From: Ignavibacteriota bacterium
Lineage (GTDB): Bacteria; Bacteroidota; Ignavibacteria; Kapaibacteriales; UBA2268
Assembly (NCBI GenBank): GCA_016219595.1
Contig: JACRLY010000062.1
Location: forward strand, 71,639-135,638
Direction of reading: 5' to 3'
DNA: 64,000 nt
The notes beneath the pieces are model-generated. The model did no database searches. It saw only the letters and a list, made by a program, of their open reading frames with translations, and was not told the DNA's origin. The translations under genes were made by a program, and so were the position numbers. Shown piece by piece: positions 27,473-63,690 of the stretch (within the stretch, counting starts at the first letter, position 1; every line of letters starts with the position of its first letter).

Positions 27473-30400
27473 TCAATTTCCTAAAAATATTCCCACCGAT
27501 TTGTTTGCCCAATATAATATTGGTTCGTACCAGATTCCGAGTACAAGTGTTGGGATTACCAAAAGCAGAAGCATTACGACGCTCATAGGTGAAAATGAAA
27601 GTGGTTCATGTTCTTTGTCGAGTCCGCGGAGGAACATGTTTCTCACGACTTTGACATAATAGAACAATGACACAACAGAGTTCAGCACACCGACTACAGC
27701 CAGCCATATATAATTTGCATTGATGACTGCAATAAAGAGATACCATTTACCGATGAATCCCGCTGTAGGAGGTAATCCCGTTAGTGAAATCAGGAATATA
27801 ACCATGCACACTGCAAGAACAGGCGACCTGTAACCGATTCCTGTGTAATCATCGAGTTCTTCACTTCCGATTTTATTCGCGAAGAGCATTACAACATAGA
27901 AAGCACCGAGGTTCATAAACATATAAACCACGAAGTAAATCAGTATGGAAGCTACCCCGGCATCAGTCATCACAACTACACCCATAAGCATATACCCTGC
28001 ATGAGCGATGCTTGAATAAGCAAGCAGACGCTTCAGGTTAGTCTGCCAAACTGCAACAAGATTACCGAATGTCATAGTCAGAACAGACAGAATTGCAATA
28101 ATAAATTTCCAGTCAATGGTGCTGAGCAGTTTCCATGTATCAGCGGCAACAGGGCTCGTATGGTCGAAGAATGCAACTTTAAGAAATCTTATTAGTATTG
28201 CGAAACCCGCCGCTTTGGATGCAACCGAAAGCAGTGCAGTGATTGTTACCGGTGCACCTTCGTAAACATCAGGTGTCCAAAAATGGAAAGGAACTGCTGA
28301 AATTTTATATCCGATTCCTGCAATTATCATTATTCCAGAAATCAGTAGTGGAAACATTTCTGCTTTGCCATGTGCGATTGCATAGTTTATATCATATAAA
28401 TTTAAAGAGCCTGTCAATCCGAATAAAATCGAAATTCCGTACAGCATAATTCCTGAAGACACTGCTCCGAAAATCACATACTTCAGCGATGCTTCGCTTG
28501 ACCTTTTTATTTCTTTTGTATATCCGGCGAGTATGTATGAACTAATTGACATTGTCTCGATTGATAAGTAAATCATAATCAGGTTCGAGGCGCCCGAAAG
28601 TAAAAACATACCGAATGTCATGCCTGCAATCAGCGAAAAATATTCTCCGAGCCGTCTGTCTTTTTCATAAAGTTCTTTTGAAAAGAAAGACATCAGTACA
28701 ACGATGAAGCTCGATATGAGAATTACCCATTTGAAGAATTTCGCAAAAGGGTCAACAGCGAGCATCTTCGAAAATACGACGCTGTTCTGGTTTCCTGCAG
28801 TACAAAGAAATATTCCGGTTACGATAAATCCAATTAGTAAAATAATACCGGATATGTTTTTCGATTTTCTGAAAATTAAGTCAACTATCAGAGCAACCAG
28901 GAAAGTTGCAACCAGAGCCGTTTCCGGCTCAAGCATTGCATTCGGCTGAATGCCGAGATAAATAACAATCAATGCTAGAGGTGTCAAAGCAACTAATTCG
29001 ACTGCATTCAAATCATCGGTTTTGTATTTCTTGTGCGTTGGGTCCCAGGGTCCTGCCCATTTTTCGGGAACCTGTCCGAAGAAAACTTTTTGCAAAGTCC
29101 ACAGCATATATCCGGCTCCCAATACGATACCGGTTGCAGCAATCATTGTTAAAGTCGGATTATATTGGAATGCTCCGAGGAAAACAAGAATTTCACTGAC
29201 AAATCCGCTCAATCCCGGCAATCCGATAGCTGCCATGAATGATATTGTCATTAGTCCTGTGTATATCGGCATCTTGTTTGCCATTCCGCCGAAGTCATCT
29301 AATCCTCTTGTATGGCTTCTGTCGTAGAGAACTCCTACAACCATGAAGAGCATAGCAGTGATTGTACCATGGTTGAACATCTGGAGAATTGCTCCTTCCA
29401 TACCGGATGTATTCAATGCCGCCATTCCGAGTACAACAAATCCCATGTGGCTGACTGATGAATAGGCAATCAGCTTTTTGAAATCACGCTTACCTACCCT
29501 GTGCTGTCCCAGGGCACACAAGGCACCATATACAATACTGACTACACCCACCAATGCAATAAACCACTGGAAATATTTGACAGCATCCGGGAACATGGGC
29601 CAGCTTATTCTCATCATTCCGTAAGTACCCATTTTCAGAAGGACTCCAGCAAGAATCACGCTGATTGGTGTCGGTGCTTCCACATGTGCGTCTGGAAGCC
29701 ATGTATGGAATGGTACAGAGGGCACTTTGATTGCAAATCCCACGAATAGAGCCATGAACGCTATATACCGCCAGGTAGTATCAACTCCGAACAAGATTGA
29801 ATTTGGGTTGTATTTTGACGGGTCCATCATGTCGAGCATATTGAATGAACCGACTGCAAAGAATAATGCAATCATAACGAGAAGCATGAATACGCTTCCG
29901 AACAATGTATATAAGAAAAACTTTATAGCTGCATATTCTTTTCTCGGACCACCCCAGATACCAATCAGGAAGTACATAGGCAGTAGCATCAATTCCCAGA
30001 AAACATAGAAGAGGAAGAAATCGAGTGCCACAAAAACACCCATCATTCCTGCATCCAACAGGAGATACATTGCGAAATAACCCTTCAATGCTTTTGAAAC
30101 GCTGAACGATGAAAATGATGCCACAAAGCAAACGATAGCAGTAAGCAATACCATTGGGGCACTGATTCCGTCAATTCCGACGTAATAATCAATCCTGACA
30201 TTGCCAAGCAAAGGCAATCCGTAAAGATAAATCCATTTGAATTTATCTACGAATTGGAAACCGGACGGGTCATTAATACCCGCTTTGTGATAATTATAAT
30301 TAATATAAATCAGTATGGCTATTACCAACTGTAAAAATGTAAATATTATGGTCACCCATCTGAAAAGCAGTTTCGAAACTTCTTTACTACGTTCATCCTT

Positions 30401-30490
30401 TCCTGAAGGGATGAGTAATATCAATACCATTCCCAACAGCGGCAAGAAGGTAATCCATGTTAGAGGTCCCATGCCGAAAATCTGAAACAT
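27473..30490 (-). CDS. nuoM/nuoN: NADH-quinone oxidoreductase subunits M and N encoded as one continuous 1005-codon ORF (NuoM-NuoN fusion or lost stop)
   Basis: The N-terminal ~515 aa are NuoM-like ([28 protein letters not shown]). The C-terminal ~485 aa are NuoN-like ([21 protein letters not shown]...). The junction, ...[23 protein letters not shown]..., has no stop. Met519 (codon 28934-28936) could act as an internal NuoN start. Confidence 0.8.
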   Translation of the reverse strand: [1005 protein letters not shown]

Positions 30491-30710: not shown

Positions 30711-32960
30711 TCAAACAAAAAAGTAAATCAACAGCATCACACCAATCACTACAAAAACAAGGTATGTCTGCACTCTGCCTGTCTGGACTTTACGGAACAT
30801 AGCTCCGAAAAATCCGGTTACATTTGCCGACAGGTTAACAAAACCATCTATTACTATATTATCAAAATGTCCTATAAAATATGAAAATCCTCTGGTTACA
30901 AAAGCAGTCAGGTTAACCATTCCATCAATCAGGTACAGGTCAAACCATGCAAGCACTTTCGAGAATCCCACAGTTCCTGCTACAACAGTGGCATGATAAA
31001 TCTCATCGAAATACCATTTCCTGAATGAGAATTGGTGAAGTTTTGGAAATTGTTTTGCCATGTTGTCAGCATTGAAAATTTTAAACTGGTACACCATGAA
31101 TGAGAACAATATCCCGAATCCAGCAATTAAGATTGAAAGAATCATAGCAGGATTATGCGCATGGTGCATCTGTTCTTCGAATTTATTCAAATAGTGATGT
31201 CCACCACTGTGAGTTGTTCCATGCTTTGTATTCTGCGTCATTTCCGGTGTATGTGTACCCCCTGCATTTGAGGCGGGGGTCATAACATTTTCATTCTTGT
31301 GATGTCCGCAATCTCCCTTACATTCACCCTCTTTGCAACTATGCTTCATTGCCATTATGTAAGGGCTTTCCCCTTTTTCAGTAGGAGTAAGGAAATTGAA
31401 CTGGTATTTTGCCGGTACTGCCGTTTGCGGTACAGGTAAATTCTTAACAAACCAGCCCTTATTTGCATCAGTCGGATTCGGTGAATAGAAGAACCAGAAA
31501 GATAATACTGCAAGCAATACCAAAGGAAATACTATGACAAATTTATTTTCATGTGTGTTTTTAGCTATTTCGGTTTTATGCTCTCCGTGGAAAGCAACTA
31601 TTGTCAGACGGAACATATAAAACGCAGTCATACCCGCCGCTGTAAATCCGGCTATCGGGATAAACCAATGCCCGCTCAACTGGGCAAATGCGAGTGTTCC
31701 GGCAAGGATACCGTCTTTACTCAAAAATCCCGATGTCAAAGGTACACCGGACAATGCAAACGTGGCAAACAGGAATGTCATATATGTCAGAGGCATCGTC
31801 CTTCTCAATCCGCCCATATTATTAATATCCTGCGGGTCAGTGTGATGGTCATGGAATTTGTGCATCGAATGATGCATCGCATGAATCACTGAGCCGGAAG
31901 CAAGGAATAATGCTGCTTTGAACCAGGCATGCGTTACAAGATGGAAAAAGCCGGTTGTATAGGAACATGCACCCAAAGACATAATCATAAATCCCAACTG
32001 GCTGACAGTTGAGTAAGCAAGCACTCTCTTGAAGTCAACTTGTGTAATAGCAATCGTGGCTGACATGAATGCAGTGAATGCTCCTACATAAGCAATCGTA
32101 GTAAGTGCATCAGCAGAAAACATGGGGAATACCCTTGCCACGAGATAAACACCTGCAGCGACCATTGTCGCGGCGTGAATCAATGCACTCACTGGCGTTG
32201 GACCTTCCATAGCATCCGGCAGCCAAACGTGTAGTGGAAATTGAGCCGATTTGCCGATTGCACCGCAGAAAATAAATACACCTTACAGAGTAAGCCAGAA
32301 TCCACTATTGAACGGCAAATGACCGCCTGCTATTCCTGCAAAAATTTCATCGAAGAAAACAGTGTTATATGTCAAGAATAAAATCAGTATACCTGCGAAA
32401 AATCCGAAGTCGCCAATCCTGTTGACTAAAAATGCTTTCTTCCCTGCGTCGGATGCGGATTTCTTTTCGTACCAGAAGCCGATTAATAAATAAGAACTGA
32501 CACCGACAAGCTCCCAGAATATATACATAAATAAGAAGTTATTTGCAATTACTATTCCGAGCATAGAGAAAGTAAACAATCCAAGATATGCGAAGTAACG
32601 CGAATATCTTTTATCATCAGCCATATATTCTGTCGAAAACAAATGCACCAGGAAACTGATTAATGTAACGACAATCAGCATCATTGCAGCGAGGTTATCA
32701 ATTAAAATACCGACTTTAATATTCGTATTACCCAGGTTAAGCCAATTTATTTTGGTTTGAATAACATTCATATCGGCAAAAGTTGTCAACTTGGTATATA
32801 ATATGAAAACTGAAAGGAGTACATCAATACCGATAATAGTAACTGCCAGCCAACTACTCATTCTTCCCAGCCGCTTACCGAAGAAAATGTTAATCACAAA
32901 TCCGAACAGCGGGAACACTAATACAAATGCCGCAAGATATAATAATGTGTCAGGTGTCAT
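30711..32960 (-). pseudogene. nuoL: NADH-quinone oxidoreductase subunit L interrupted by an in-frame TAA (codon at 32283-32285); ORF pieces are 32283..32960 and 30711..32282
   Basis: The two ORFs are in the same frame. Hand translation across the gap gives ...[48 protein letters not shown]..., a contiguous and conserved NuoL sequence with a single stop. The downstream part also carries a His/Cys-rich insertion. Confidence 0.75.
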
Positions 32961-43194: not shown

Positions 43195-43572
43195 TTATAC
43201 TCCCACCAGTTCCTTCACTTTAGCTATCAGTAAATCCCTGTCAATCGGTTTTTCGAAATATGCAAGTGGTGGTTTCACTTGTTTGCGTGTTGAAATGAAT
43301 TTCTTGAATTCAGATGTGATCCCTGTTATTATTATTACAGGTATATTTTCAGTTAATGAGTCTTCCTGCAATTCCTTGAATGCTCTTACTCCCGATTCTT
43401 CGGGCATAGTAATGTCCAATGTAATCAGGTCAGGTTTTTCATTCCTGGCTTTGTCGAAACATTCTTTGCCATTGTTGGCAGTCATTACATCAAATCCGTT
43501 ATCTGAAAATAATGTGGTTAAATATGTCAGTACATCAGGTTCATCATCAACAACTAAAATTTTTTTTGCCAT
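43195..43572 (-). CDS. Response regulator receiver (CheY-like, stand-alone)
   Basis: 125 aa. ILVVDDEPDV…PDLITLDITMPEESG has the phospho-acceptor Asp and a conserved Lys. There is no output domain. Confidence 0.85.
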   Translation of the reverse strand: MAKKILVVDDEPDVLTYLTTLFSDNGFDVMTANNGKECFDKARNEKPDLITLDITMPEESGVRAFKELQEDSLTENIPVIIITGITSEFKKFISTRKQVKPPLAYFEKPIDRDLLIAKVKELVGV

Positions 43573-43595
43573 TGTTTGTTCTCCGATAATTATTT

Positions 43596-45413
43596 TTATT
43601 TTGATTCACTTTTAGATACAGCCGGAATGATTATTCTGAACACGGAACCTTTGCCTTCATTGCTGTCAAATTCAATTCTACCACTATGTTCACTGACAAT
43701 TTTCCTGATTGTCAGCAAGCCCAATCCAGGACCTTGTCCTCCCTTTGTCGTAAAAAAAGTTGAGAATAATTTAGCTTTCACTTCTTTATTCATACCAATA
43801 CCATTATCCGATATTTCGAAAGTGATTTCTTTTTCATCTCCCTTAACCCTTACATTCACTTTCCCGTCATTTCTGCCGCTTAACATAACAGCATCGATAG
43901 CATTCGAAATAAGATTACTTAAACAAATTTCTATCCCATCAGGGTCAAGCATGATTTTATTAATATAAGGCAATGTATCAAAAACAATCCTGATACCGTA
44001 TTTGTCTGCAATCGGTTTTTGATATTCGCAAATCTTTTCCGTTAATTCCACGGGATTTACGGGTTTCAACTCTATTTTTTTTCCTTTTGTGTAATCAACA
44101 AAACTTTTAACAAGGTTAGTAGTCCTTTTCAGATTTTTATTCAACACCCCCCAGCCCTGGTTAAGCCTTTTTGAATCGTTATTTTTTATTCCCGAATCGA
44201 GGAGGTACATTCCTCCTTCAAGGCTCATCAGTAGATTTTTGACCGAATGAGAAATTCCTGCTAATGTTTCTGAAATCACATCATCCCTTTTGGATTCAAA
44301 CATTATTTCTTCGGTTTTCTTCTGGTTTCTCAGGTCGGTAATAAATGCAATTTTATTTGTTTTCTTATCCTTATATTTTATTTCAAAAGCTTTAAACCTG
44401 ACTAAGATTTCTTCTCCACTGTGATTCCGTATAGTTGTCGATGGCAAATCGGAAATCATTCCATCTTCTTTTGCCTGTATAAAAAACTCTTCAGGAAACA
44501 TATTTTTCAAAGTATTATAATTCGGTTTTTTCTTTCCTTTCCAATTAAGAAGTAATTGTGCGGGTTTGTTCATAAATATAACTTTATTCTTTTGGTCAAG
44601 GATTAAAACTCCATCAGAAGTATGCTGCAAAAGTGAATGGAAGAATTCCTGGTCGCGTTCCAATTGAGTTTCCAGCTCATAAATCTCAGTTATATCAATC
44701 GCCATTTGCAACACAAGTGAAATACCGTCTTTCGACCTTGTCAGAGGCGTAGTTGTTACGACATAATGTGTTTCTTCCCCGTCCAGGGACAAACCGACTT
44801 CGGCTGACGAGTGTTCCATTCCATCTTCAAATGTTTCTAATGCATTACATATATTACATGGTGCTTTCTTTTTCTTATATACTTCATAGCAATGCTTTCC
44901 TTCTATACTTCCGAAAGTATCCCGGAACTTCTGATTAGCCCTTACAATTCTAAAATCGCGGTCTATCACCGTAATGTAGCAGGCAGCCTTCTCGAAAAGC
45001 AGGCTGTACTCTTTTTGCATCAGCTCTGAATATATTATGTCGGTTGACATCATGAGCTGGTATGGAATATTTCCTTTTTTATCGCGTATGGGAGAATAAT
45101 GATTTACATATTGACAGCTTCTGCCGTGCTTGTCGTAACCTGTTTCATTAGATACCAGTATTTTCCCTGAAACAAAGGATTCGTCGGATTGGCAATTGCG
45201 GCATTTTTCATCAGTTTTTTTATAAACCTGGTAGCAGTACTTTCCTTCCCAATTACCGAAATAGTTTTTAAAACTTTCATTAGCAAAAACTATCTGATGA
45301 TTTTTGTCAATTACAGCAACGTTGAAAGGGACATTCTCTATAAAGTCCGTAGAAAGAATTCCCGATAATTCTTCAGGAGTAATATTGACAGTTTTATCTG
45401 CCATAAAAAGCAA
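43596..45413 (-). CDS. PAS-domain sensor histidine kinase
   Basis: 605 aa. It has repeated PAS-like segments with Cys-rich stretches, an H-box-like segment (...ISETLAGISHSVKNLL) and HATPase_c motifs (NLISNAIDA…ISDNGIGM…GGQGPGLGLLTIRKIV). Confidence 0.8.
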   Translation of the reverse strand: MLFMADKTVNITPEELSGILSTDFIENVPFNVAVIDKNHQIVFANESFKNYFGNWEGKYCYQVYKKTDEKCRNCQSDESFVSGKILVSNETGYDKHGRSCQYVNHYSPIRDKKGNIPYQLMMSTDIIYSELMQKEYSLLFEKAACYITVIDRDFRIVRANQKFRDTFGSIEGKHCYEVYKKKKAPCNICNALETFEDGMEHSSAEVGLSLDGEETHYVVTTTPLTRSKDGISLVLQMAIDITEIYELETQLERDQEFFHSLLQHTSDGVLILDQKNKVIFMNKPAQLLLNWKGKKKPNYNTLKNMFPEEFFIQAKEDGMISDLPSTTIRNHSGEEILVRFKAFEIKYKDKKTNKIAFITDLRNQKKTEEIMFESKRDDVISETLAGISHSVKNLLMSLEGGMYLLDSGIKNNDSKRLNQGWGVLNKNLKRTTNLVKSFVDYTKGKKIELKPVNPVELTEKICEYQKPIADKYGIRIVFDTLPYINKIMLDPDGIEICLSNLISNAIDAVMLSGRNDGKVNVRVKGDEKEITFEISDNGIGMNKEVKAKLFSTFFTTKGGQGPGLGLLTIRKIVSEHSGRIEFDSNEGKGSVFRIIIPAVSKSESK

Positions 45414-45481
45414 TTAAATAATATTCACAATTAAATTAATATATTTAAATATTAAAATATAACTTCAAAGTTATACTTTAT

Positions 45482-47083
45482 TTACATCATTTCAAAATCA
45501 ATAAATCCTTCTTTCACATCAACCATCGCATTTACAATCAACTCAACCAAACCGGAATAATAAAGTCCTGATTTGGCTTTAGCTCCATAAAAATCAAATA
45601 AATCGCGGAAGGCTCCTTTGCAATTTGAGCATGGAGCACACACATATTTTGGTGTTTCAGGACCGGGATTTTCATCTGAAAATGCGTTTAATACCTGCTC
45701 AAATTTCATACGGCTTGCCACCTGAATTCTCCAGTCGCTGAAATTATATCTGCTCATGACTGCAAATCCGCTTCCTCCGCCACAGCAGTAGTTTCTGTTG
45801 CCATGAGGCTCCATTTCGCGGAATTTCGGTGCAAGGTACCTTAACACTTTTCTTTGTGGTTCTATTACACCCATAGACCTTGCGAGGTTGCATGGGTCAT
45901 GCAATGTAACTGGGAACCAGTTTCTTTCGGGCTCAAATTTTAATTTTCCGCTGAATACAATATCGTTCATTATTGTCATAGCAGTTTCCCTTGGTACCGC
46001 TCCTGCAAATATACGGTCTGCAATCACACCCATTGCCTTGCTTTCATGACCACATTCACCCATTACGATTTTCTTTACTTTAAGTTTTTTGGCAATATCG
46101 AGATGCTTCATTGCAATTCTTGCTAACTGGACATCATCATAAAACAATCCGTAGTTGACACCATCATATCCAACCAAATCACTTGACATCGTCCATTTAA
46201 TCCCGGCTGCATCCAGAATTAAGGCAAAGGCTCCGGGATTTTCGGGCCAGGATAATATTTCACCCGAATTATGTATCAATAATACATCAGCTCCTTCTAC
46301 ATCCCATTTAGTTTCAACTTTAATGCCGGTTCTTTCACTCATATCCTCATCAATAAATTCAATATTATCTTTCACTACAAGTGAATTCATACCTGTACTG
46401 GAACCGACTTCGAGCTGCTGAACAGTGCCTTTCTCATGAAGTTCCTTTGGCGATAATCCCATTTCCATGCTGAACATTTTTCTAAGTTCATGAGTTATTA
46501 ATCCATTGTCAACTCCGATAGGGCAGCTTTGGGCACATCGTCTGCACAGTGTGCATCTGTAACTGAGTTCAAATAGTCTTGCTATCAATTTCCAGTTCAG
46601 TTCGATTCCGCCATTCTGGAAAGTATTATATAATTTGCTACCTTTTTTTACATACTTAAAATATAGTTTTCTCAATATCTCAGCCCTGTAGGTAGGTCTG
46701 TATATTTCATTTTCTCCGCTTCCTATGAAAATCGGACAATCCTGGCTGCATGTCTGGCAGCGGGCGCAGTATTCCATCGAAAGAGTCAATGGCTGAAGAA
46801 ATGCCCAGTTATTTTCTTTGCTGAATAGTTTGTTTAAACCCGAAATAAAAGATTCAATCAGCCTTTTCTCTTCTTCTTCCGATTCAGGTTTTTTCAGTCC
46901 GACAGCCATCACACCATCGAGGGACGCTTCGAATTTTGCTCTTATTTCACGAGATAGAGTCTTGAATCCCGGCTGTTCTTCCAATTTATCATAAGGAGGA
47001 GGCAGAGGATATAATTCTTCTAATTTGATTTCCGCCAACTGCTCTACAGGTGAGCTAATATCTTTGATTTTAACATTTTTCAT
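45482..47083 (-). CDS. HdrD/DsrK/GlpC-family iron-sulfur protein (2x[4Fe-4S] plus two CCG domains)
   Basis: 533 aa with CARCQTCSQDCP and CTLCRRCAQSCP ferredoxin motifs. CCG-domain cysteines are present (…HDPCNLARSMG…NYCCGGGSGFA…CAPCSNCKGA). It overlaps the upstream membrane subunit gene by 4 nt. Confidence 0.75.
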   Translation of the reverse strand: MKNVKIKDISSPVEQLAEIKLEELYPLPPPYDKLEEQPGFKTLSREIRAKFEASLDGVMAVGLKKPESEEEEKRLIESFISGLNKLFSKENNWAFLQPLTLSMEYCARCQTCSQDCPIFIGSGENEIYRPTYRAEILRKLYFKYVKKGSKLYNTFQNGGIELNWKLIARLFELSYRCTLCRRCAQSCPIGVDNGLITHELRKMFSMEMGLSPKELHEKGTVQQLEVGSSTGMNSLVVKDNIEFIDEDMSERTGIKVETKWDVEGADVLLIHNSGEILSWPENPGAFALILDAAGIKWTMSSDLVGYDGVNYGLFYDDVQLARIAMKHLDIAKKLKVKKIVMGECGHESKAMGVIADRIFAGAVPRETAMTIMNDIVFSGKLKFEPERNWFPVTLHDPCNLARSMGVIEPQRKVLRYLAPKFREMEPHGNRNYCCGGGSGFAVMSRYNFSDWRIQVASRMKFEQVLNAFSDENPGPETPKYVCAPCSNCKGAFRDLFDFYGAKAKSGLYYSGLVELIVNAMVDVKEGFIDFEMM

Positions 47084-48048
47084 TTTTTCACCTCTTTCGA
47101 AGGTGCTGCACTTGCTATAGCAATCCAGTTCCTGTTGCCGTCGGCTCCAATATGAGGCGCAGCCCAGGTTACTTTTTGATTCAACTGTTCACCAACTCTT
47201 TCTGCTATCTTACTGCCTGGAGCGTTTGGAGTGTCCTCCCATCTCACACTGTGGTACGTAAAGTATTTAGCAAAGAAATGTGTCATGTGTGTGAAGGGCA
47301 GATAAATAATAAAAATTAACGAAATTATTACATGTGCGTACCCGATTTTTGGAATTTGAACAGGCAGATTAATTGCAATTTCTTTTGAGAAAGTTATCAA
47401 TCCGAGGTAGTATCCCATCAGATTTGTTACCATGCCGGAATCAGCAATTCTCCACAACAGTGCTGTGAGATAAATTGTGCCGATTAATATAATATTAAAG
47501 TAATGACTTGCTGTGCTGTAAAGTACAAGTTTTCTATTCACTATTCTTGTAAATAATAACCTTATTGCTCCCAATATTCCAAGTATAGATGCAATCCAGA
47601 TTATTGCATCTATTACAATTCTGAATATTGACCAGAATGTTGCCCAGTTGGAGCTTGCACCGAAAACAAATGGTGATATGCCCGTTATTTGAAATAAAGT
47701 ACCGACAATAAGCAATGCGATATTCCCAATAAATAAATACAAAGCAAAATGGAATGGAAATGAACCTAACCACAATTCTTTATTATGCTCCCAGACTCCT
47801 TTAAGCAATAAAATTTCGGGAACCATTACTTTTAATTCACCAAGATGGTCTTTTTCTCTTTTTTTAGTCCACCAGTCAACTTCCTCGAGGATGGAGCCGC
47901 CATAGCTTGCCCGTCCTTTTTCATGTGGAACGGGGTATAGTTCCCATCTCAGGTGAACGGGGGAAGAAGCAATTTTCACAAACTTGTATATCACAACTGC
48001 AAGGAAAATCAGGACAGATAAATACGTAAAAATGAATAGCAAATACAT
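47080..48048 (-). CDS. NarI/HdrE/DsrM-like membrane di-heme cytochrome b subunit (putative)
   Basis: 322 aa with five or six TM helices and conserved His in the helices (HFALY…, HVII…, THMTHF). It is co-operonic with the HdrD-like gene. Confidence 0.55.
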   Translation of the reverse strand: MYLLFIFTYLSVLIFLAVVIYKFVKIASSPVHLRWELYPVPHEKGRASYGGSILEEVDWWTKKREKDHLGELKVMVPEILLLKGVWEHNKELWLGSFPFHFALYLFIGNIALLIVGTLFQITGISPFVFGASSNWATFWSIFRIVIDAIIWIASILGILGAIRLLFTRIVNRKLVLYSTASHYFNIILIGTIYLTALLWRIADSGMVTNLMGYYLGLITFSKEIAINLPVQIPKIGYAHVIISLIFIIYLPFTHMTHFFAKYFTYHSVRWEDTPNAPGSKIAERVGEQLNQKVTWAAPHIGADGNRNWIAIASAAPSKEVKK

Positions 48049-48105
48049 TAATATCTCCGGTTCAAAATTATTATATCAGATATTTTCAATTAACAAGAAT
48101 CCAAT

Positions 48106-48230
48106 GAATAGCCACCACTTTTAAGTGTGGAAATGTTATTTACACAATATTGGATTTATCCACTTAAATCAATGACTAAAGCCATAATCAGATTAATAAC
48201 TTTCCCACTATCTAATGATAGCGGCTATTC
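48106..48230. repeat. MITE-like element, family B copy 2
   Basis: gaatagccaccacttttaagtgtgg … ccactatctaatgatagcggctattc. It is homologous to 30543-30674 and sits between the dsrC-like gene and the dsrM-like gene. Confidence 0.7.
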
Positions 48231-48260
48231 ACAATCAATGCAAAAGTTTTAATTCAATTA

Positions 48261-48578
48261 TTATACACAGCCTGTCGGCTTAGCCAATCCGGCTACTTTA
48301 CAGGCACCTTTTGCAGGACCTGAAGGGAACAACTCGTATATCCTTTTCAATGGATAACCTGTTTCCTTGCAAAGCTTGCGAATCATCGGAGCAATACCGT
48401 ATTGCTTGAAATAATCCCTCAAATAATTGATAACCTTCCAATGGTCTTCTGTAATATCCAATACGTCTTCGGTGCTGGCAAGTGCTTTCGCAACTTCTTC
48501 ATTCCAATCCTCGGGATTCTCTATGAATCCGTCTTCATCAACATTAATCTTTACTGTTCCATATTCAAAAATGGGCAT
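48261..48578 (-). CDS. DsrC/TusE-family protein with both C-terminal arm cysteines (DsrC-like)
   Basis: 105 aa ending …GPAKGACKVAGLAKPTGCV. This is the DsrC-type flexible arm, with a penultimate Cys and a second Cys 11 residues upstream. TusE proteins lack the upstream Cys. Confidence 0.7.
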   Translation of the reverse strand: MPIFEYGTVKINVDEDGFIENPEDWNEEVAKALASTEDVLDITEDHWKVINYLRDYFKQYGIAPMIRKLCKETGYPLKRIYELFPSGPAKGACKVAGLAKPTGCV

Positions 48579-48634
48579 CTGAACCTCCCAAGCTATTTTA
48601 TTATGTTAATACAAATATTTGATTATGCTTTTTT

Positions 48635-50389
48635 TTAAAACATTAACAATTTATTATAAAAAATCACTTTTCCTGTTTCCGGATCTCTCGGTGCAATCTG
48701 CCCGTTCATCGGATTTCTCATTTCTATATACCCGCAGGGACATGATTCAGCACATTTATTACATCCTTTACATACATCCAATTTAAAAGTATATGGCTGA
48801 AACTTAGTTACCGGCTTGTGGATTGCCTGGTCCTGGCATAAACTCCAGCAGGTACCGCAATCGAAACAATGACCGCAGCTCATGCATCTCTTCGCTTCAT
48901 CAATTACCTGCTCCTCCGTGTAAGTTAAGCTTATCTCCTTTTCAAGTTCTTTCAGTCTTTCTTCAATTCCCAGTTTCAGGTTTTCATTTCTGAATTTCTC
49001 GGCATAATATGTCAGTACCATTTTGTCTTTAGTTACGACTTGCATTTCTTCTTCAACCGGTGCTTCAATGCCTCTGAACTGGCTATGTATTGTTTCTGCC
49101 GCTTTCCTTCCCTGGTATATTGCTATTGTTACTAATCCCAGGTCGAGATTATCTCCGCCTGCATAAACATTTTCTTCTTTCGTTTTGAATTTCTCATCAA
49201 CCTTAATCCAGTCCTTGCCTTCATGCAGTTTGTCCAAACCTTTGAACTCGGGTTCCTGGCTGATTGCTGAAATAATTGTTGTGCATTCGAATGTTGTTTC
49301 AGAATCTGGGATTGGAACAGGTCTGCGTCTTCCGGATGAATCCGGCTCACCGAGTTCCATCTTTTGGCACTTCATTGCAACTACCTTGTCGCCATCTTTT
49401 ATTAATTCAAGCGGAGCTTCGAGAAATTCAAATTTCACATCTTCTTCCTCTGCACCGACAATTTCTTCTTCGATTGCAGGCATTTCTGCCCTGGTTCTGC
49501 GGTAAACAATCCATACTTCCGCTCCCAGGCGGCGCGATACTCTCGCCGCATCTATTGCTGTGTCTCCGCCACCGACTACCAGCACTTTATTGCCGACATC
49601 AACATTTTGTCCTGAATTGATTTTATTCAAAAATTCAGTTCCGGTGAAAACATTCGGTGCTTCCTCGTTAGGTAAGCCGAGCAATTTGCCTTTGTGGGCG
49701 CCTATTCCTACGAATATTGCATTATAATCACTTTGCAATTGTTCATATGATATGTCTTTACCAATGATTGTATTCGTTTTTATTTCGACACCAAGTTTCT
49801 CTATTCTTCCTATTTCTTTATCGAGAACTGCGGCAGGCAATCTGTAATCGGGAATACCATACCTCAGCATACCCCCTGCTTTGCTGAATGCTTCGAACAC
49901 TGTCGGTTTGTATCCCCTTCTTGCAAGCTGGTAAGCACAGGACAGCCCTGCAGGTCCCGCACCGATTATAGCAATCTTCTCATTGTACTTTTCTTCTGTC
50001 AGCATCTCAAACGGAAGGTCATGCTCCAGCGCATAATCACCGATGAATCTTTCGACATTATTTATACCGGCAGGTCCTTCCTTGTATTGCCTGTTGCACT
50101 CACCTTCGCATGGATGAGGACAAACCCTTCCGCAGACTGCCGGAAAGGGATTCCTGTCTGCTATGATTCTGAATGACTTTCGGAATGATTCATCGTAAGT
50201 TCTGCCTGCGTCTTCAGTCTGTGCTATTGTTGTGAGTATTTCCCTGATTTTCGTTCCATTGGGGCACCCATGCATGCAGGGAGCAAGTTTTTCCAGGTAT
50301 TCCGGTCTCAGGGGTGAAGTCTCTACCGATGAACCGCCTGAATGGCTCCTGCCTCCTAATGGTTTCTTCTGTTTAACTAATAAAGCCAC
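48635..50389 (-). CDS. GltD-like NAD(P)H-dependent oxidoreductase with a C-terminal 2x[4Fe-4S] ferredoxin domain (DsrL/NfnB/SudA-like)
   Basis: 584 aa. It has N-terminal Fe-S cysteines (CMHGCPNG…CGRVCPHPCEGEC), FAD/NAD Rossmann motifs (IAIIGAGPAGLSCA; VLVVGGGDTAIDAA), and C-terminal CMSCGHCFDCGTC…CKGCNKCAESCPCG. Confidence 0.7.
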   Translation of the reverse strand: MALLVKQKKPLGGRSHSGGSSVETSPLRPEYLEKLAPCMHGCPNGTKIREILTTIAQTEDAGRTYDESFRKSFRIIADRNPFPAVCGRVCPHPCEGECNRQYKEGPAGINNVERFIGDYALEHDLPFEMLTEEKYNEKIAIIGAGPAGLSCAYQLARRGYKPTVFEAFSKAGGMLRYGIPDYRLPAAVLDKEIGRIEKLGVEIKTNTIIGKDISYEQLQSDYNAIFVGIGAHKGKLLGLPNEEAPNVFTGTEFLNKINSGQNVDVGNKVLVVGGGDTAIDAARVSRRLGAEVWIVYRRTRAEMPAIEEEIVGAEEEDVKFEFLEAPLELIKDGDKVVAMKCQKMELGEPDSSGRRRPVPIPDSETTFECTTIISAISQEPEFKGLDKLHEGKDWIKVDEKFKTKEENVYAGGDNLDLGLVTIAIYQGRKAAETIHSQFRGIEAPVEEEMQVVTKDKMVLTYYAEKFRNENLKLGIEERLKELEKEISLTYTEEQVIDEAKRCMSCGHCFDCGTCWSLCQDQAIHKPVTKFQPYTFKLDVCKGCNKCAESCPCGYIEMRNPMNGQIAPRDPETGKVIFYNKLLMF

Positions 50390-50430
50390 TTGTTTTTCCG
50401 ATTTATATATTACACATTAATATTATTCAA

Positions 50431-50868
50431 TCATATACCGCCATAAGGGTACATTCCTTTTTTGATTTTTTCTATTTCCGACAAAAGCATATCGTGTTTC
50501 TTCTCGTCTGTCAACAGGTAATCAAGCAGGTAACGGGCAAGATTGGAAGTGGTCTCATCCATAGCTTCTTTTGCCTTTTCGATTGTCTGCTTTTCTAATT
50601 CATCGTGATGCTCGAGCATATTCCACATAGTAAGAAGTTCGTCGGGAGCTATTGTAACCGGCTGTTTCTCGTAATGGTCTATGATTAACTGCTGGACACG
50701 TTTGTGCATAGCCGAATCCTGCCGGATTATTTCCATAACAAGGTGAATCAGCGGATTCTTAGTCTGCTTGATAATCTCGGTAGAGTTTCTCACCGACTCA
50801 TCCTCGATTGCCTGCCAGTTCTTCAGTATTTTCACAAGCTTCGCTATTTGCTGCTTCTGTGTTGCCAT
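50431..50868 (-). CDS. Hypothetical protein, possibly ferritin-like (two E-x-x-H-like motifs)
   Basis: 145 aa with MLEHHDELEKQ and DEKKHDMLLSEIE. It is the first gene of the dsr-like operon. Confidence 0.3.
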   Translation of the reverse strand: MATQKQQIAKLVKILKNWQAIEDESVRNSTEIIKQTKNPLIHLVMEIIRQDSAMHKRVQQLIIDHYEKQPVTIAPDELLTMWNMLEHHDELEKQTIEKAKEAMDETTSNLARYLLDYLLTDEKKHDMLLSEIEKIKKGMYPYGGI

Positions 50869-51216
50869 AAATCTTTGCCAATTACTTCAATTCAACTATG
50901 TAAGTTCGTAATTTTTTAAATAAATCGCCAACAAAAAATAAAGAACGAAAAATGTTCCTCCAATCCATTCATTACATAACTAATTGTAAATTACGCTTTT
51001 GATGAGATTGATACCACTGAAATCATTTGTTTGTAATTGCACTGTTGCAGTGTTATTATTATTAACAAAATAATTCTTTTCAGTACCATTAATTTCTTTT
51101 ACATTGAATTAAATAAGATAAAAACTGTAATATTTCTTTGAACGAAACAAAAAATTTGATAAATTTGGCATGTTGTTCGTTAAAATTGTTTATCATTCAT
51201 TCCCCGGGTTGTCATT

Positions 51217-62085: not shown

Positions 62086-63690
62086 ATGAAAAACTTTTTT
62101 AGAATCTTAGTTATTCTACTTCTATTAACTGCTTATACCACAAAAGCCGAAAATTTTGACGAAACAAGATTTGGCTTGGGAGCAGGAGCAAGCGTCGGAA
62201 TCAATGAATCAAAAGACAGACCATTCAATCTTTCATTCGGTGCACTTTTCAGGCAGCCGTTCAATGAAATGTTTGCCGGCGAGTTCAGCATTGGTTATGT
62301 TCCGCTCAGCGGAGAAACTTATGTGACAAGCGGTCAGGGTAAATATGAGACAAACCTGATTCCTATTGATTTAAAATTACTGTTTTCCCCAATAAGAGCA
62401 AAAAGCTGGTATCCTTATCTCCTGGGTGGTTTTGGTGTTTTCAACTATGATGCGAAAACACCATCTCCTGTGGCAGATGCACAGGCAAAAGATAAGGGAT
62501 GGGCGCCATACTTCTGTTTGGGAGCCGGAATTGAAGCGGCACTTTCGAGTAACTTCTCACTCGATTTTCATGCATCAGGAAATCGCAGTTTTACTGATGA
62601 TATTAATGGTGAGTATGACAATCCAAGTATTTATGACGGATACTGGAATTTGACACTATCAATTATTTATACTCCATGGGGTGTCGATGGTGATTCAGAT
62701 GGTGATGGTTTACTTGATTCATTTGAAGACCAGATTGGCACTAATCCGGATAATCCCGACACAGACGGTGACGGTCTCAAAGACGGTGCAGAATATAATA
62801 AATATAAAACAAATCCCATGGTTCCCGACACAGACGGTGACGGCTTAAAAGATGGTGCAGAAGTAGATGATTACAATACCGACCCACTGAAAGCTGACAC
62901 GGACGGTGACGGTTTGAAGGACGGAGAAGAGGTAATGACCTACAAGACAGATCCCAATAAAGCAGATACAGACGGTGACGGACTTAAAGACGGAGAAGAA
63001 GTATTAACTTACAAGACAGACCCGCTGAAGGCTGACACTGACGGTGACGGACTTAATGATGGTGATGAGGTTTTGAAGCACAGGACAGACCCATTAAAGA
63101 TGGACACTGATGGCGATGACTTGAACGATGGAGCTGAAGTTACCAGGCACAAGACTGATCCGACTAAGATTGATACAGACGGAGACGGTCTGAAAGACGG
63201 CGAGGAAGTAACAAAATACAAGACAAATCCAACCATGAAGGACACTGATAAAGGTGGAGTTGACGACGGAACCGAAGTTGCCAAAAAGCAAAATCCTCTC
63301 GATGGAACAGATGATTATGGTAAGAAGACTCTCGGTCCCCAGGAAATTGGTGCAAAAATTGTTCTTGAAGGAGTTCTTTTCGAGACCGGAAAATCCAAAA
63401 TTACACCGGCATCTGATTCGATTTTAATTCAGGCTTACGAAACTTTGGTTGCTTATCCGAATATGGAAGTTTTGATTACCGGTCATACCGATAATGTAGG
63501 CAAGAGAGATAAAAATATTAAGTTATCTCAGGACAGGGCTGATGCCGTGAAAACATGGCTTGTGAACAGAGGTATTGCTTCATCAAGAATGACGACAAAA
63601 GGTTATGGTCCGGATAAACCGATAACCCTGAATGATACTCCTGAAAACAAGCAGAAGAACAGAAGAATTGAGTTTGAGAGAACCAAATAG
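62086..63690 (+). CDS. OmpA-family outer-membrane protein with an N-terminal beta-barrel, thrombospondin type-3 (TSP3) Ca-binding repeats and a C-terminal OmpA domain
   Basis: 534 aa. It has a signal peptide and about 11 DTDGDGLKDGEE repeats. The OmpA-like C-terminus has NMEVLITGHTDNVGKRDKNIKLSQDRADAVKTWL…GYGPDKPI…NRRIEF. Confidence 0.85.
   Translation: MKNFFRILVILLLLTAYTTKAENFDETRFGLGAGASVGINESKDRPFNLSFGALFRQPFNEMFAGEFSIGYVPLSGETYVTSGQGKYETNLIPIDLKLLFSPIRAKSWYPYLLGGFGVFNYDAKTPSPVADAQAKDKGWAPYFCLGAGIEAALSSNFSLDFHASGNRSFTDDINGEYDNPSIYDGYWNLTLSIIYTPWGVDGDSDGDGLLDSFEDQIGTNPDNPDTDGDGLKDGAEYNKYKTNPMVPDTDGDGLKDGAEVDDYNTDPLKADTDGDGLKDGEEVMTYKTDPNKADTDGDGLKDGEEVLTYKTDPLKADTDGDGLNDGDEVLKHRTDPLKMDTDGDDLNDGAEVTRHKTDPTKIDTDGDGLKDGEEVTKYKTNPTMKDTDKGGVDDGTEVAKKQNPLDGTDDYGKKTLGPQEIGAKIVLEGVLFETGKSKITPASDSILIQAYETLVAYPNMEVLITGHTDNVGKRDKNIKLSQDRADAVKTWLVNRGIASSRMTTKGYGPDKPITLNDTPENKQKNRRIEFERTK

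What the first reader, a model, noticed from the sequence alone, without database searches (positions are those of the whole stretch)
45482..50868. DsrL-like / DsrC-like / DsrM-like / DsrK-like operon without visible DsrAB
The operon runs in the minus direction and encodes:
- a small hypothetical protein
- a GltD-like NAD(P)H oxidoreductase with a C-terminal di-cluster ferredoxin (DsrL/NfnB-like architecture)
- a DsrC/TusE-family protein that retains both arm cysteines (…CKVAGLAKPTGCV)
- a NarI-like membrane cytochrome b
- an HdrD/DsrK-type CCG-domain Fe-S protein

This looks like a self-contained NAD(P)H -> DsrC-like (disulfide/trisulfide) -> DsrMK-like -> quinone module. It is immediately upstream of a PAS histidine kinase and response regulator. 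No dsrAB is present in the window.
Basis: partly seen in the sequence, partly recalled or inferred. Interest (0 to 1): 0.6.

Follow-up and report, generated by a model that had tools for sequence, protein, structure and literature searches.

The report
Detached dsrL-dsrC-dsrM2K2 sulfite-reduction operon
This is the accessory half (DsrL, DsrC and a second DsrMK-type membrane complex) of an ordinary dissimilatory sulfite/sulfate-reduction pathway in a Kapabacteria/Ignavibacteria-like bacterium; the "missing" sulfite reductase gene dsrA lies on the same contig about 18 genes beyond the left edge of the window, so this is not a DsrAB-free system.

Summary
Five co-directional minus-strand genes at 45482-50868 encode a 145-aa unknown protein, a GltD/NfnB-like flavoprotein with a C-terminal ferredoxin, a two-cysteine DsrC, a NarI-like cytochrome b and a CCG-domain Fe-S protein. 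A PAS histidine kinase and a CheY-like regulator follow. No dsrAB lies in the 64 kb.

The interpretation (a self-contained module without DsrAB) does not hold. The window proteins are 100% identical to GenBank proteins MBI5325478-MBI5325525 of one 146,303-bp contig of an "Ignavibacteriae bacterium" MAG. That MAG's DsrA (MBI5325460.1) sits on a contig of the same length, 18 protein accessions before the first window gene.

In other Kapabacteria the same five genes directly follow sat-aprBA-qmoC-dsrABDN. The closest relatives, the GWB2_35_12 clade, show the same detachment and also carry dsrTMKJOP and dsrABD. Their orthologue of the flavoprotein (89% identical) is the published DsrL-2 OGU41173. 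The order hyp-dsrL-dsrC-dsrM2-dsrK2 was described by Thiel et al. 2019.

Verdict: a known Dsr accessory module whose apparent lack of DsrAB is a window-edge artefact.

Three points remain open:
- the role of DsrM2K2 relative to DsrMKJOP;
- its frequent pairing with a CheY-like regulator across phyla;
- the conserved, possibly di-iron, 145-aa protein.

The parts
50431..50868 (-). Conserved 145-aa 'hyp' protein, the first gene of the operon. Predicted four-helix protein with ferritin-like/di-iron-like residues; function unknown.
   Evidence: No Pfam or NCBIfam hit. 441 homologues, 54-100% identical in the 120 listed. Lies between dsrN and dsrL in Kapabacteria loci and directly beside M2K2 in some loci that lack dsrL (L016, L023, L029, L044). 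AF2 model has pLDDT 90 and four long helices. Invariant E22 D23 E46 D51 H55 H88 E92 D121 E122 H125. Weak profile match to designed di-iron proteins (E 0.004). Foldseek best hits are mini-bacterioferritin, CopM and Dps (E 0.06-0.1, TM 0.35).
48635..50389 (-). dsrL (type DsrL-2): NADP(H)-dependent iron-sulfur flavoprotein with a GltD/NfnB-like core and a C-terminal 2x[4Fe-4S] ferredoxin.
   Evidence: Fer4_20 + Pyr_redox_2 + Fer4_21; PRK12771 570 bits, above the 516 cut-off. 89% identical to the L006 protein, which is identical to OGU41173.1 (A2X61_13720), listed as DsrL of GWB2_35_12 in the DsrL tree of PMC7596348. YRR motif at 296-298, conserved Ser25-x-x-Arg28, and Cys502-552 ferredoxin motifs.
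48261..48578 (-). dsrC: sulfur-carrier and co-substrate of DsrAB, with both redox-active C-terminal cysteines.
   Evidence: PF04358 131 bits; TIGR03342 119 bits; TusE equivalog 69 bits, below the 191 cut-off. Cys93 and Cys104 are conserved in all 23 locus homologues. Best solved relatives are DsrC/DsvC subunits of sulfite reducers (E 1e-36 to 1e-32), against A. vinosum DsrC 3e-26 and a TusE-like sulfurtransferase 7e-9.
47080..48048 (-). dsrM2: NarI-like membrane cytochrome b and presumed quinol-interacting subunit. A paralogue, not the canonical DsrM.
   Evidence: PF02665 26.8 bits; DsrM equivalog NF038037 only 33.5 bits against a 300 cut-off. About five hydrophobic segments; His32, His100, His257, His266 and His299 are conserved in 78 homologues. 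Adjacent to K2 in 78 of 80 species loci. Overlaps dsrK2 by 4 nt.
45482..47083 (-). dsrK2: HdrD/DsrK-type CCG-domain Fe-S protein and presumed catalytic subunit acting on the DsrC trisulfide/disulfide.
   Evidence: Best NCBIfam family is DsrK at 323 bits (cut-off 400); HmcF 177, TmcB 174, GlcF 18. Cys106/109/112/116 and Cys177/180/183/187 form the 4Fe-4S motifs; Cys398, Cys433-434 and Cys482/485/488 form the CCG-type motif. 29% identical to the canonical DsrK of GWB2_35_12. 100% identical to MBI5325515.1. Relatives confirmed at 581 matched stretches in genome contigs; the best 80, each from a different genome, are 60-91% identical.
43596..45413 (-). PAS-domain sensor histidine kinase, a probable regulator of the operon.
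   Evidence: PAS_4/PAS_9/PAS_8 + HATPase_c. A homologous HK lies within 5 kb of M2K2 in 21 of 80 loci.
43195..43572 (-). Single-domain (CheY-like) response regulator close to the DVU0259 family.
   Evidence: Response_reg 79.8 bits; NF045717 DVU0259_DivK 118 bits, below the 160 cut-off. D9, D10, D53, T83 and K108 are conserved. A homologue of at least 43% identity lies within 2.5 kb of M2K2 in 34 of 80 loci across phyla.

Best explanation
The operon is the hyp-dsrL-dsrC-dsrM2-dsrK2 block of a complete, reductive-type Dsr pathway in an uncultured OPB56/Kapabacteria-related bacterium (GenBank MAG 'Ignavibacteriae bacterium', locus tags HZB41_). In this lineage the block has been separated from dsrAB by genome rearrangement and sits next to its own PAS kinase and CheY-like regulator.

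The likely mechanism is inferred from homology with characterised systems. Nothing was measured here.
1. DsrAB, encoded about 18 genes left of the window, reduces sulfite together with DsrC. This forms a trisulfide across Cys93 and Cys104 of DsrC.
2. DsrK2 reduces the DsrC trisulfide to sulfide plus reduced DsrC at its CCG-type cluster. The electrons come from menaquinol through the cytochrome b DsrM2. DsrM2K2 would act in parallel with, or under different conditions from, the canonical DsrMKJOP that relatives also carry.
3. DsrL-2 feeds NADPH electrons to DsrAB.
4. The PAS-HK/RR pair adjusts expression or activity to redox state.
5. The 145-aa four-helix protein is an unassigned accessory, possibly di-iron.
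For: Source and dsrA:
- Window K2 is 533/533 identical to MBI5325515.1.
- Nine window proteins map to MBI5325478-MBI5325525 on one 146,303-bp contig, with numbers rising with window coordinate.
- DsrA MBI5325460.1 of the same organism name is on a single contig of the same length.

Orthology with dsr clusters:
- L014 carries QmoC 386 bits, DsrA 559, DsrB 497 and DsrN 448, followed by hyp-L-C-M-K that are 60/75/85/57/72% identical to the window.
- The same layout with sat-aprBA occurs in L086-L092. In L090-L092, however, the M2K2 pair is not adjacent.
- dsrA, dsrB, dsrN or sat lie within 10 kb of M2K2 in about 22 of 80 species loci.

Closest clade:
- L006 (RIFOXYC2_FULL_35_21) has the identical detached operon.
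- GWB2_35_12 contig MGZV01000064.1 carries DsrM 493 bits, DsrK 727 bits, JOP and dsrABD.
- PMC6338057 lists a full sat/apr/qmo/dsr set for GWB2_35_12 and gives the order dsrAB-dsrD-dsrN-hyp-dsrL-dsrC-dsrM-2-dsrK-2.

Protein features:
- DsrL-2 features and identity with OGU41173.
- DsrC cysteines and affinity to reductive DsrC.
Against: - The contig itself could not be fetched. That dsrA is on the same contig rests on contig length, organism name and accession order, not on sequence.
- dsrB, dsrD, sat, apr, qmo and dsrMKJOP were not verified for this MAG, only for relatives.
- M2 and K2 fall below the NCBIfam equivalog cut-offs for DsrM and DsrK. No biochemical study of a DsrM2K2 complex was found, so its substrate is inferred.
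- About 58 of 80 M2K2 loci show no dsr gene within 10 kb. Independence from DsrAB in some lineages is therefore not excluded.
- The direction of operation (reduction, oxidation or disproportionation) cannot be read from sequence.
Confidence: 0.85

Rival explanations
1. One reading: a self-contained NAD(P)H -> DsrL -> DsrC -> DsrM2K2 -> quinone (or the reverse) electron-transfer module. It would work independently of DsrAB, for example as an NADPH:menaquinone link with DsrC as a redox shuttle.
For: L, C, M2 and K2 are co-directional and tightly spaced, with their own HK/RR. The M2K2 pair occurs widely: relatives at 581 matched stretches in the genome collection. About 58 of the 80 best loci have no dsr gene within 10 kb.
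Against: dsrA is on the same contig. hyp-L-C is glued to dsrABDN in other Kapabacteria even where M2K2 lies elsewhere: L090 against L004/L009 in one 5.46-Mb chromosome. DsrL is described as a partner of DsrAB, and DiSCo found DsrL almost only in DsrAB genomes (PMC7596348, PMC8477390).
Confidence: 0.05
2. The same Dsr gene set runs in the oxidative or disproportionating direction. DsrC persulfide would be oxidised by DsrM2K2, passing electrons to menaquinone. DsrAB would release sulfite and DsrL would pass electrons to NADP+.
For: DsrL was first tied to sulfur oxidisers. Some organisms with DsrL-2 are sulfur oxidisers (PMC7596348). An SQR-like gene (Pyr_redox_2/FCSD_central) lies just upstream of the operon in the GWB2 clade. 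Hausmann et al. and Thiel et al. leave the direction open.
Against: Relatives have dsrD, and the literature places their DsrA in the reductive bacterial type. DsrC is closest to reductive DsrCs. No dsrEFH was seen in any fetched locus, though it was not searched for systematically. The SQR-like gene is absent from the window.
Confidence: 0.1
3. The DsrC-like protein is a TusE for tRNA 2-thiouridine synthesis, and the CCG protein is a glycolate/lactate-oxidase-type subunit. On this view the resemblance to Dsr is superficial.
For: GenBank annotates the GWB2 orthologue as 'sulfurtransferase TusE'.
Against: The TusE equivalog scores 69 bits against 191. The protein keeps the second cysteine (Cys93), which per PMC8477390 marks DsrC proteins. 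No TusB/C/D-type domain appeared in the ORFs of 150 aa or more that were scanned; smaller ORFs were not scanned. GlcF scores 18 bits against 333 and LutB 25 against 445. The genes are syntenic with dsrABDN in relatives.
Confidence: 0.01

Closest known systems
dsrAB-dsrD-dsrN-hyp-dsrL-dsrC-dsrM-2-dsrK-2 cluster of 'Ca. Thermonerobacter thiotrophicus' and Ignavibacteria bacterium GWB2_35_12 (Thiel et al. 2019, PMC6338057)
   Same: Same five genes in the same order. The GWB2-clade orthologues are 77/89/90/84/91% identical, with the same HK/RR downstream and the same flanking transglutaminase-like, desaturase and nuo genes.
   Different: In the hot-spring MAGs and other Kapabacteria the block directly follows dsrABDN. 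Here, as in the GWB2 clade, it is detached. In this MAG dsrA is about 55 genes from dsrK2 on the same contig. The window also lacks six genes (ArsR, AhpC/Trx, SQR-like and others) that precede hyp in the GWB2 clade.
DsrL-2 (Loffler et al. 2020, PMC7596348), biochemically characterised from Desulfurella amilsii
   Same: GltD/NfnB-like core, C-terminal two-cluster ferredoxin, YRR motif and a Ser...Arg pattern at the first cluster. 89% identical to OGU41173, which is in the published DsrL tree.
   Different: No enzymology exists for this clade. The equivalence of Ser25/Arg28 to NfnB Cys39/Cys42 is inferred from the motif, because HMMER alignments to NfnB start at residues 35-37.
Canonical DsrMK(JOP) complex (NCBIfam NF038037 / NF045796)
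   Same: NarI-like cytochrome b plus a CCG-domain Fe-S protein, translationally coupled and dsr-linked. Presumed menaquinol:DsrC-trisulfide oxidoreductase.
   Different: M2 scores 33.5 bits against 300 and K2 323 against 400. K2 is only 29% identical to the canonical DsrK of the nearest relative. There is no dsrJOP or dsrT alongside. These are the 'dsrM2K2' paralogues noted by Hausmann et al. 2018 (PMC6018796).
Tmc complex operon of Desulfovibrio vulgaris with its DVU0259 response regulator (named from NCBIfam NF045717/NF045724 and my own recollection of the D. vulgaris operon)
   Same: A CCG protein and a cytochrome b encoded next to a single-domain DVU0259-like response regulator and a sensor kinase.
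   Different: TmcB scores only 174 bits against 735. No cytochrome c (TmcA) or TmcD is present. The RR is below the family cut-off (118 against 160).

Membership tests
DsrC (bona fide, as opposed to TusE/RspA) | Member of PF04358 / TIGR03342 | tested here: met
   131 bits (cut-off 24.9) and 119 bits (cut-off 53.5).
DsrC (bona fide, as opposed to TusE/RspA) | Two conserved C-terminal cysteines (CysB-x10-CysA) and the motif AGLPKPTG(not N)C with at most one mismatch (DiSCo, PMC8477390) | tested here: met
   Cys93 and Cys104; the window reads AGLAKPTGC, one mismatch. Both Cys are conserved in all 23 locus homologues.
DsrC (bona fide, as opposed to TusE/RspA) | Co-occurrence with dsrAB in the same genome | tested here: met
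   DsrA MBI5325460.1 is on a 146,303-bp contig of the same MAG name, 18 accessions before the first window protein. This is indirect, because the contig sequence was not read.
TusE (tRNA thiolation) | Reaches the TusE equivalog score; tusBCD nearby | tested here: not met
   NF008562 scores 69 bits against 191. No TusB/C/D-type domain appeared in the ORFs of 150 aa or more that were scanned; smaller ORFs were not scanned.
DsrL, type 2 | NfnB/GltD-like N-terminal Fe-S domain, FAD and NAD(P)H domains, and a C-terminal two-[4Fe-4S] ferredoxin | tested here: met
   Fer4_20, Pyr_redox_2 and Fer4_21. GxGxxG/A motifs at 143 and 273; Cys502-518 and Cys540-552.
DsrL, type 2 | YRR motif (NADP(H) preference) in the substrate-binding domain | tested here: met
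   YRR at 296-298, conserved in 13 of 14 aligned homologues; the fourteenth, L075, is a truncated ORF.
DsrL, type 2 | NfnB Cys39 replaced by Ser/Thr and Cys42 replaced by Arg (DsrL-2 of organisms with reductive DsrA) | tested here: inconclusive
   A conserved S25-P-x-R28 lies ahead of Cys38/Cys42 in all full-length homologues. The spacing to Cys38 is 9 rather than 4 residues, and no direct alignment to NfnB covers it.
DsrL, type 2 | Falls within the published DsrL clade | tested here: met
   89% identical to the L006 protein, which equals OGU41173.1/A2X61_13720. That accession is listed as DsrL of GWB2_35_12 and appears in the DsrL tree of PMC7596348.
DsrL, type 2 | NADPH-dependent electron transfer to DsrAB | not testable with these tools
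   Requires enzyme assays.
Canonical DsrK (NF045796, DsrMKJOP subunit) | Equivalog score of at least 400 bits; encoded with dsrJOP | tested here: not met
   323 bits, and no JOP in the window. The canonical DsrK of GWB2_35_12 scores 727 bits and is 29% identical to K2.
Canonical DsrM (NF038037) | Equivalog score of at least 300 bits | tested here: not met
   33.5 bits, against 493 bits for the canonical DsrM of GWB2_35_12.
DsrM2K2 paralogue pair (Hausmann 2018; Thiel 2019) | NarI-like cytochrome b plus a CCG protein most similar to DsrK, recurrently linked to dsr genes and distinct from DsrMKJOP | tested here: met
   DsrK is the best family hit. M-K adjacency in 78 of 80 loci. dsrA/B/N/sat within 10 kb in about 22 of 80 loci. 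The pair is named dsrM-2/dsrK-2 in the orthologous Thermonerobacter/GWB2 clusters.
GlcF/LutA-type glycolate/lactate oxidase Fe-S subunit | Reaches the GlcF or LutB family score | tested here: not met
   GlcF 18 bits against 333; LutB 25 bits against 445.

The most novel reading that the evidence does not exclude
DsrL-2, DsrC and DsrM2K2, together with the conserved di-iron-like 145-aa protein and a dedicated PAS-kinase/CheY-like regulator, form a separately regulated branch of DsrC redox cycling. This branch would be mechanistically distinct from DsrMKJOP. One possibility is an NADPH- or quinone-linked route that recycles or pre-loads DsrC under particular redox or oxygen conditions. Another is that the CheY-like protein acts directly on the membrane complex. 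In lineages where M2K2 occurs with no dsr gene nearby, the branch may serve a DsrAB-independent function.
Probability: 0.1. Interest if true: 0.5.

Novelty: already known. Interest (0 to 1): 0.15.

Why it matters
It matters mainly as a caution. A fixed window can make an ordinary split dsr system look like a DsrAB-free one. Generic annotations in GenBank ('TusE', '(Fe-S)-binding protein', 'hypothetical protein') hide Dsr components.

Three modest open questions remain:
- What DsrM2K2 does that DsrMKJOP does not.
- Why the pair is so often encoded with a CheY-like regulator across many phyla.
- What the conserved 145-aa four-helix protein between dsrN and dsrL does.

Tried and rejected
- Exact look-ups of the window DsrK2 and of the MAG's DsrA (P0371) in the gene-position index found nothing. 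The 146-kb contig could therefore not be read, and linkage rests on accession order.
- A look-up of the exact hyp sequence gave only a 932-bp Logan contig.
- P0125 and P0157 were guessed to be the GWB2-clade DsrA but came from other Kapabacteria. The right cluster was found through the listing of cluster members.
- A literature search for 'dsrM2K2' as one word found nothing.
- The terminator and promoter scan was uninformative: 4 terminator-like sites against 5.8 expected, and none between the genes.
- TusE and GlcF/LutA readings were rejected on family scores and synteny.
- The metagenome scan, the representative-library search and the second structure job were not used, because the question was settled without them.
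Full report
OBSERVATION

| Window coordinates | Length | Product |
|---|---|---|
| 50431-50868 | 145 aa | unknown protein ('hyp') |
| 48635-50389 | 584 aa | DsrL-like flavoprotein |
| 48261-48578 | 105 aa | DsrC |
| 47080-48048 | 322 aa | NarI-like cytochrome b (M2) |
| 45482-47083 | 533 aa | CCG-domain Fe-S protein (K2) |

A PAS histidine kinase (43596-45413) and a single-domain response regulator (43195-43572) follow. Intergenic distances are 41, 56, 212, -4, 68 and 23 nt.

Profile scans confirm the domain assignments:
- The 584-aa protein has Fer4_20 + Pyr_redox_2 + a C-terminal di-cluster ferredoxin. NCBIfam PRK12771 scores 570 bits against a cut-off of 516.
- The 105-aa protein is PF04358 DsrC (131 bits) and ends CKVAGLAKPTGCV.
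- The 322-aa protein is NarI-like (26.8 bits).
- The 533-aa protein has two 4Fe-4S motifs and a CCG domain. DsrK is its best family (323 bits). HmcF scores 177, TmcB 174 and GlcF 18.
- The 145-aa protein matches nothing.

The rest of the window encodes chemotaxis proteins, DnaG, TonB-related proteins, YidC, a nuo operon, a fatty-acid desaturase and several T9SS-sorted secreted proteins. tblastn with QmoC, DsrA, DsrB, DsrN and Sat from a related locus finds nothing in the window (best E 0.24). The observation, including 'no dsrAB in the window', is confirmed.

WHERE THE WINDOW COMES FROM, AND WHERE dsrA IS

- The DsrK-like protein is 533/533 identical to MBI5325515.1, '(Fe-S)-binding protein [Ignavibacteriae bacterium]'.
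- The 145-aa protein is HZB41_09675, accession MBI5325519.1.
- Nine window proteins were found by exact look-up, all on one 146,303-bp contig. Their accession numbers rise with window coordinate: CheW at 360-962 is MBI5325478, DnaG 5482, YidC 5495, the desaturase 5511, the RR 5513, DsrC 5517, hyp 5519, the Ser/Thr kinase 5523, and OmpA at 62086-63687 is 5525.
- The 90%-identity cluster that holds the DsrA of Ignavibacteria bacterium GWB2_35_12 (OGU39476.1) and of RIFOXYC2_FULL_35_21 (OGV21912.1) also holds MBI5325460.1. That protein is 'dissimilatory-type sulfite reductase subunit alpha [Ignavibacteriae bacterium]', seen on a single contig of 146,303 bp.

dsrA therefore lies on the same contig, 18 protein accessions before the first gene of the window and 55 before dsrK2. 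The contig could not be fetched. This linkage is strong but indirect.

WHAT THE OPERON IS

The best 80 loci, each from a different genome, are 60-91% identical. They come from Kapabacteria/Ignavibacteria, Zixibacteria, Calditrichaeota, Gemmatimonadota, Acidobacteriota, Planctomycetota, Spirochaetota, Myxococcota and others.

Local BLAST of the window proteins against all ORFs of these loci gives the following:

| Feature near the K2 homologue | Loci (of 80) |
|---|---|
| NarI-like M partner adjacent | 78 |
| CheY-like RR (at least 43% identical) within 2.5 kb | 34 |
| Homologous HK within 5 kb | 21 |
| DsrC anywhere in the locus | 18 |
| hyp within 5 kb | 12 |
| DsrL anywhere in the locus | 10 |

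In Kapabacteria loci (L013-L015, L017, L019, L020) the full order hyp-L-C-M-K occurs. It is immediately preceded by genes that NCBIfam identifies as QmoC (386 bits), DsrA (559), DsrB (497) and DsrN/CobB (448). A DsrD-like ORF lies between DsrB and DsrN.

Further loci reached through DsrA show sat-aprB-aprA-x-x-qmoC-dsrA-dsrB-dsrD-dsrN-hyp-dsrL-dsrC (L086-L092). In one complete 5.46-Mb Kapabacteria chromosome, that block ends with dsrC and is followed by a second M/K pair, not classified here, at 3.20-3.22 Mb. The M2K2-HK-RR-RR unit lies separately at 3.57 Mb.

The pathway is thus built from three movable blocks:
- sat-apr-qmoC-dsrABDN
- hyp-dsrL-dsrC
- dsrM2K2 (+HK/RR)

In the window the last two are joined and the first lies elsewhere on the contig.

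The nearest relatives (91% DsrK2 identity) are the Rifle-aquifer genomes GWB2_35_12, GWA2_35_8, RIFOXYA2_FULL_35_10 and RIFOXYC2_FULL_35_21. They have the same detached operon and the same neighbours: a transglutaminase-like T9SS protein, the desaturase and nuo. GWB2_35_12 contig MGZV01000064.1 carries a canonical DsrM (493 bits), DsrK (727 bits), J, O, P, a response regulator, and dsrA-dsrB-dsrD.

COMPARISON WITH THE LITERATURE

- Thiel et al. [quoted passage not shown] They list a complete sat/apr/qmo/dsr set for GWB2_35_12.
- Loffler et al. 2020 (PMC7596348) list OGU41173 (A2X61_13720) as the DsrL of GWB2_35_12. That protein is identical to the L006 orthologue, which is 89% identical to the window protein.
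- Hausmann et al. 2018 (PMC6018796) note that dsrM2/dsrK2 paralogues next to dsrAB are 'not uncommon' and that dsrC-dsrL form a gene duo.

PROTEIN FEATURES

- DsrC keeps Cys93 and Cys104, as do all 23 locus homologues. It is closest to the DsrC/DsvC subunits of sulfite reducers (E 1e-36 to 1e-32). A. vinosum DsrC scores 3e-26 and a TusE-like protein 7e-9.
- DsrL has the YRR motif (296-298), a conserved S25-P-x-R28 ahead of Cys38/Cys42, and a cysteine-rich C-terminal ferredoxin. These fit the DsrL-2 definition. The Ser/Arg equivalence to NfnB Cys39/Cys42 is inferred rather than aligned.
- DsrK2 has Cys106/109/112/116, Cys177/180/183/187 and a CCG-type set (Cys398, 433, 434, 482, 485, 488). It is only 29% identical to the canonical DsrK of GWB2_35_12.
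- DsrM2 has about five hydrophobic segments and conserved His32, 100, 257, 266 and 299.
- K2 (323 against 400) and M2 (33.5 against 300) fail the NCBIfam equivalog cut-offs. I file them as the DsrM2K2 paralogue pair, not as DsrMK proper.
- The RR has the full receiver active site (D9, D10, D53, T83, K108) and no output domain.
- The 145-aa protein is predicted with high confidence (pLDDT 90) as four long helices. Its invariant acidic and His residues include an E122-x-x-H125 motif. There are weak matches to designed di-iron bundles (E 0.004) and to ferritin-like folds (Foldseek E 0.06-0.1, TM about 0.35). A di-metal four-helix protein is plausible but not established.

MECHANISM (inferred from homology; nothing measured here)

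1. DsrAB reduces sulfite with DsrC to a DsrC trisulfide.
2. DsrK2 reduces the trisulfide with electrons from menaquinol via DsrM2. DsrM2K2 acts alongside DsrMKJOP.
3. DsrL-2 supplies NADPH electrons to DsrAB.
4. The PAS-HK/RR pair tunes the system.

An oxidative or disproportionating direction cannot be excluded from sequence. I give it about 0.1. The TusE and GlcF readings are refuted.

VERDICT

The gene identifications are correct. The headline ('without DsrAB') is a window-edge artefact. The arrangement is already published for the nearest relatives, so interest is low.

The residual curiosities are the unknown role of DsrM2K2, its recurrent pairing with a CheY-like regulator across phyla, and the uncharacterised 145-aa protein.

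Noticed in passing
window 43195-47083; loci L006-L085: The DsrM2K2 pair is encoded next to a single-domain CheY-like response regulator (DVU0259-like, full receiver active site) in 34 of 80 species loci across several phyla, often with a PAS kinase (21 of 80). From my own recollection, DVU0259 is the regulator encoded beside the tmc operon in D. vulgaris. A recurrent link between an output-less RR and a CCG/cytochrome b complex may indicate direct regulation.
   Followed up: partly
window 50431-50868: A conserved 145-aa protein lies between dsrN and dsrL in Kapabacteria dsr clusters and beside M2K2 in some Spirochaetota and Leptospirales MAGs. The confident four-helix model has invariant E/D/H residues, including an ExxH motif. 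Matches to di-iron and ferritin-like proteins are weak. It has no family assignment.
   Followed up: partly
window 30711-32960: nuoL appears split into two ORFs. 32283-32960 (225 aa) carries Proton_antipo_N plus the start of Proton_antipo_M. 30711-32210 (499 aa) carries the rest of Proton_antipo_M. This may be a frameshift, a pseudogene or an assembly error.
   Followed up: no
window 27473-30490: A 1005-aa ORF has two Proton_antipo_M matches at the end of the nuo operon. It may be a fused NuoM/NuoN-like antiporter subunit.
   Followed up: no
window 50869-51216 versus L001/L002/L006 1695-5803: The GWB2_35_12 clade has six extra genes between the transglutaminase-like gene and hyp: an ArsR-type HTH, two unknowns, an AhpC/thioredoxin, an SQR-like Pyr_redox_2/FCSD_central protein and a 201-aa protein. 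The window has only a 348-nt intergenic region there.
   Followed up: no
L028, L066, L071, L073, L078, L081, L083, L084 (about 4-9 kb): In Gemmatimonadota, Acidobacteriota, Syntrophaceae and Phycisphaeraceae MAG loci the order is K'(about 585 aa, 27-30% identical to K2)-HK-RR-M2-K2. A third CCG-protein paralogue is therefore linked to the same regulators.
   Followed up: no
L006 8428-8742 (OGU41174.1) and window 48261-48578 (MBI5325517.1): GenBank names the two-cysteine DsrC of the GWB2 clade 'sulfurtransferase TusE', and names DsrL, DsrK2 and hyp generically. Annotation alone would hide that these are Dsr components.
   Followed up: yes
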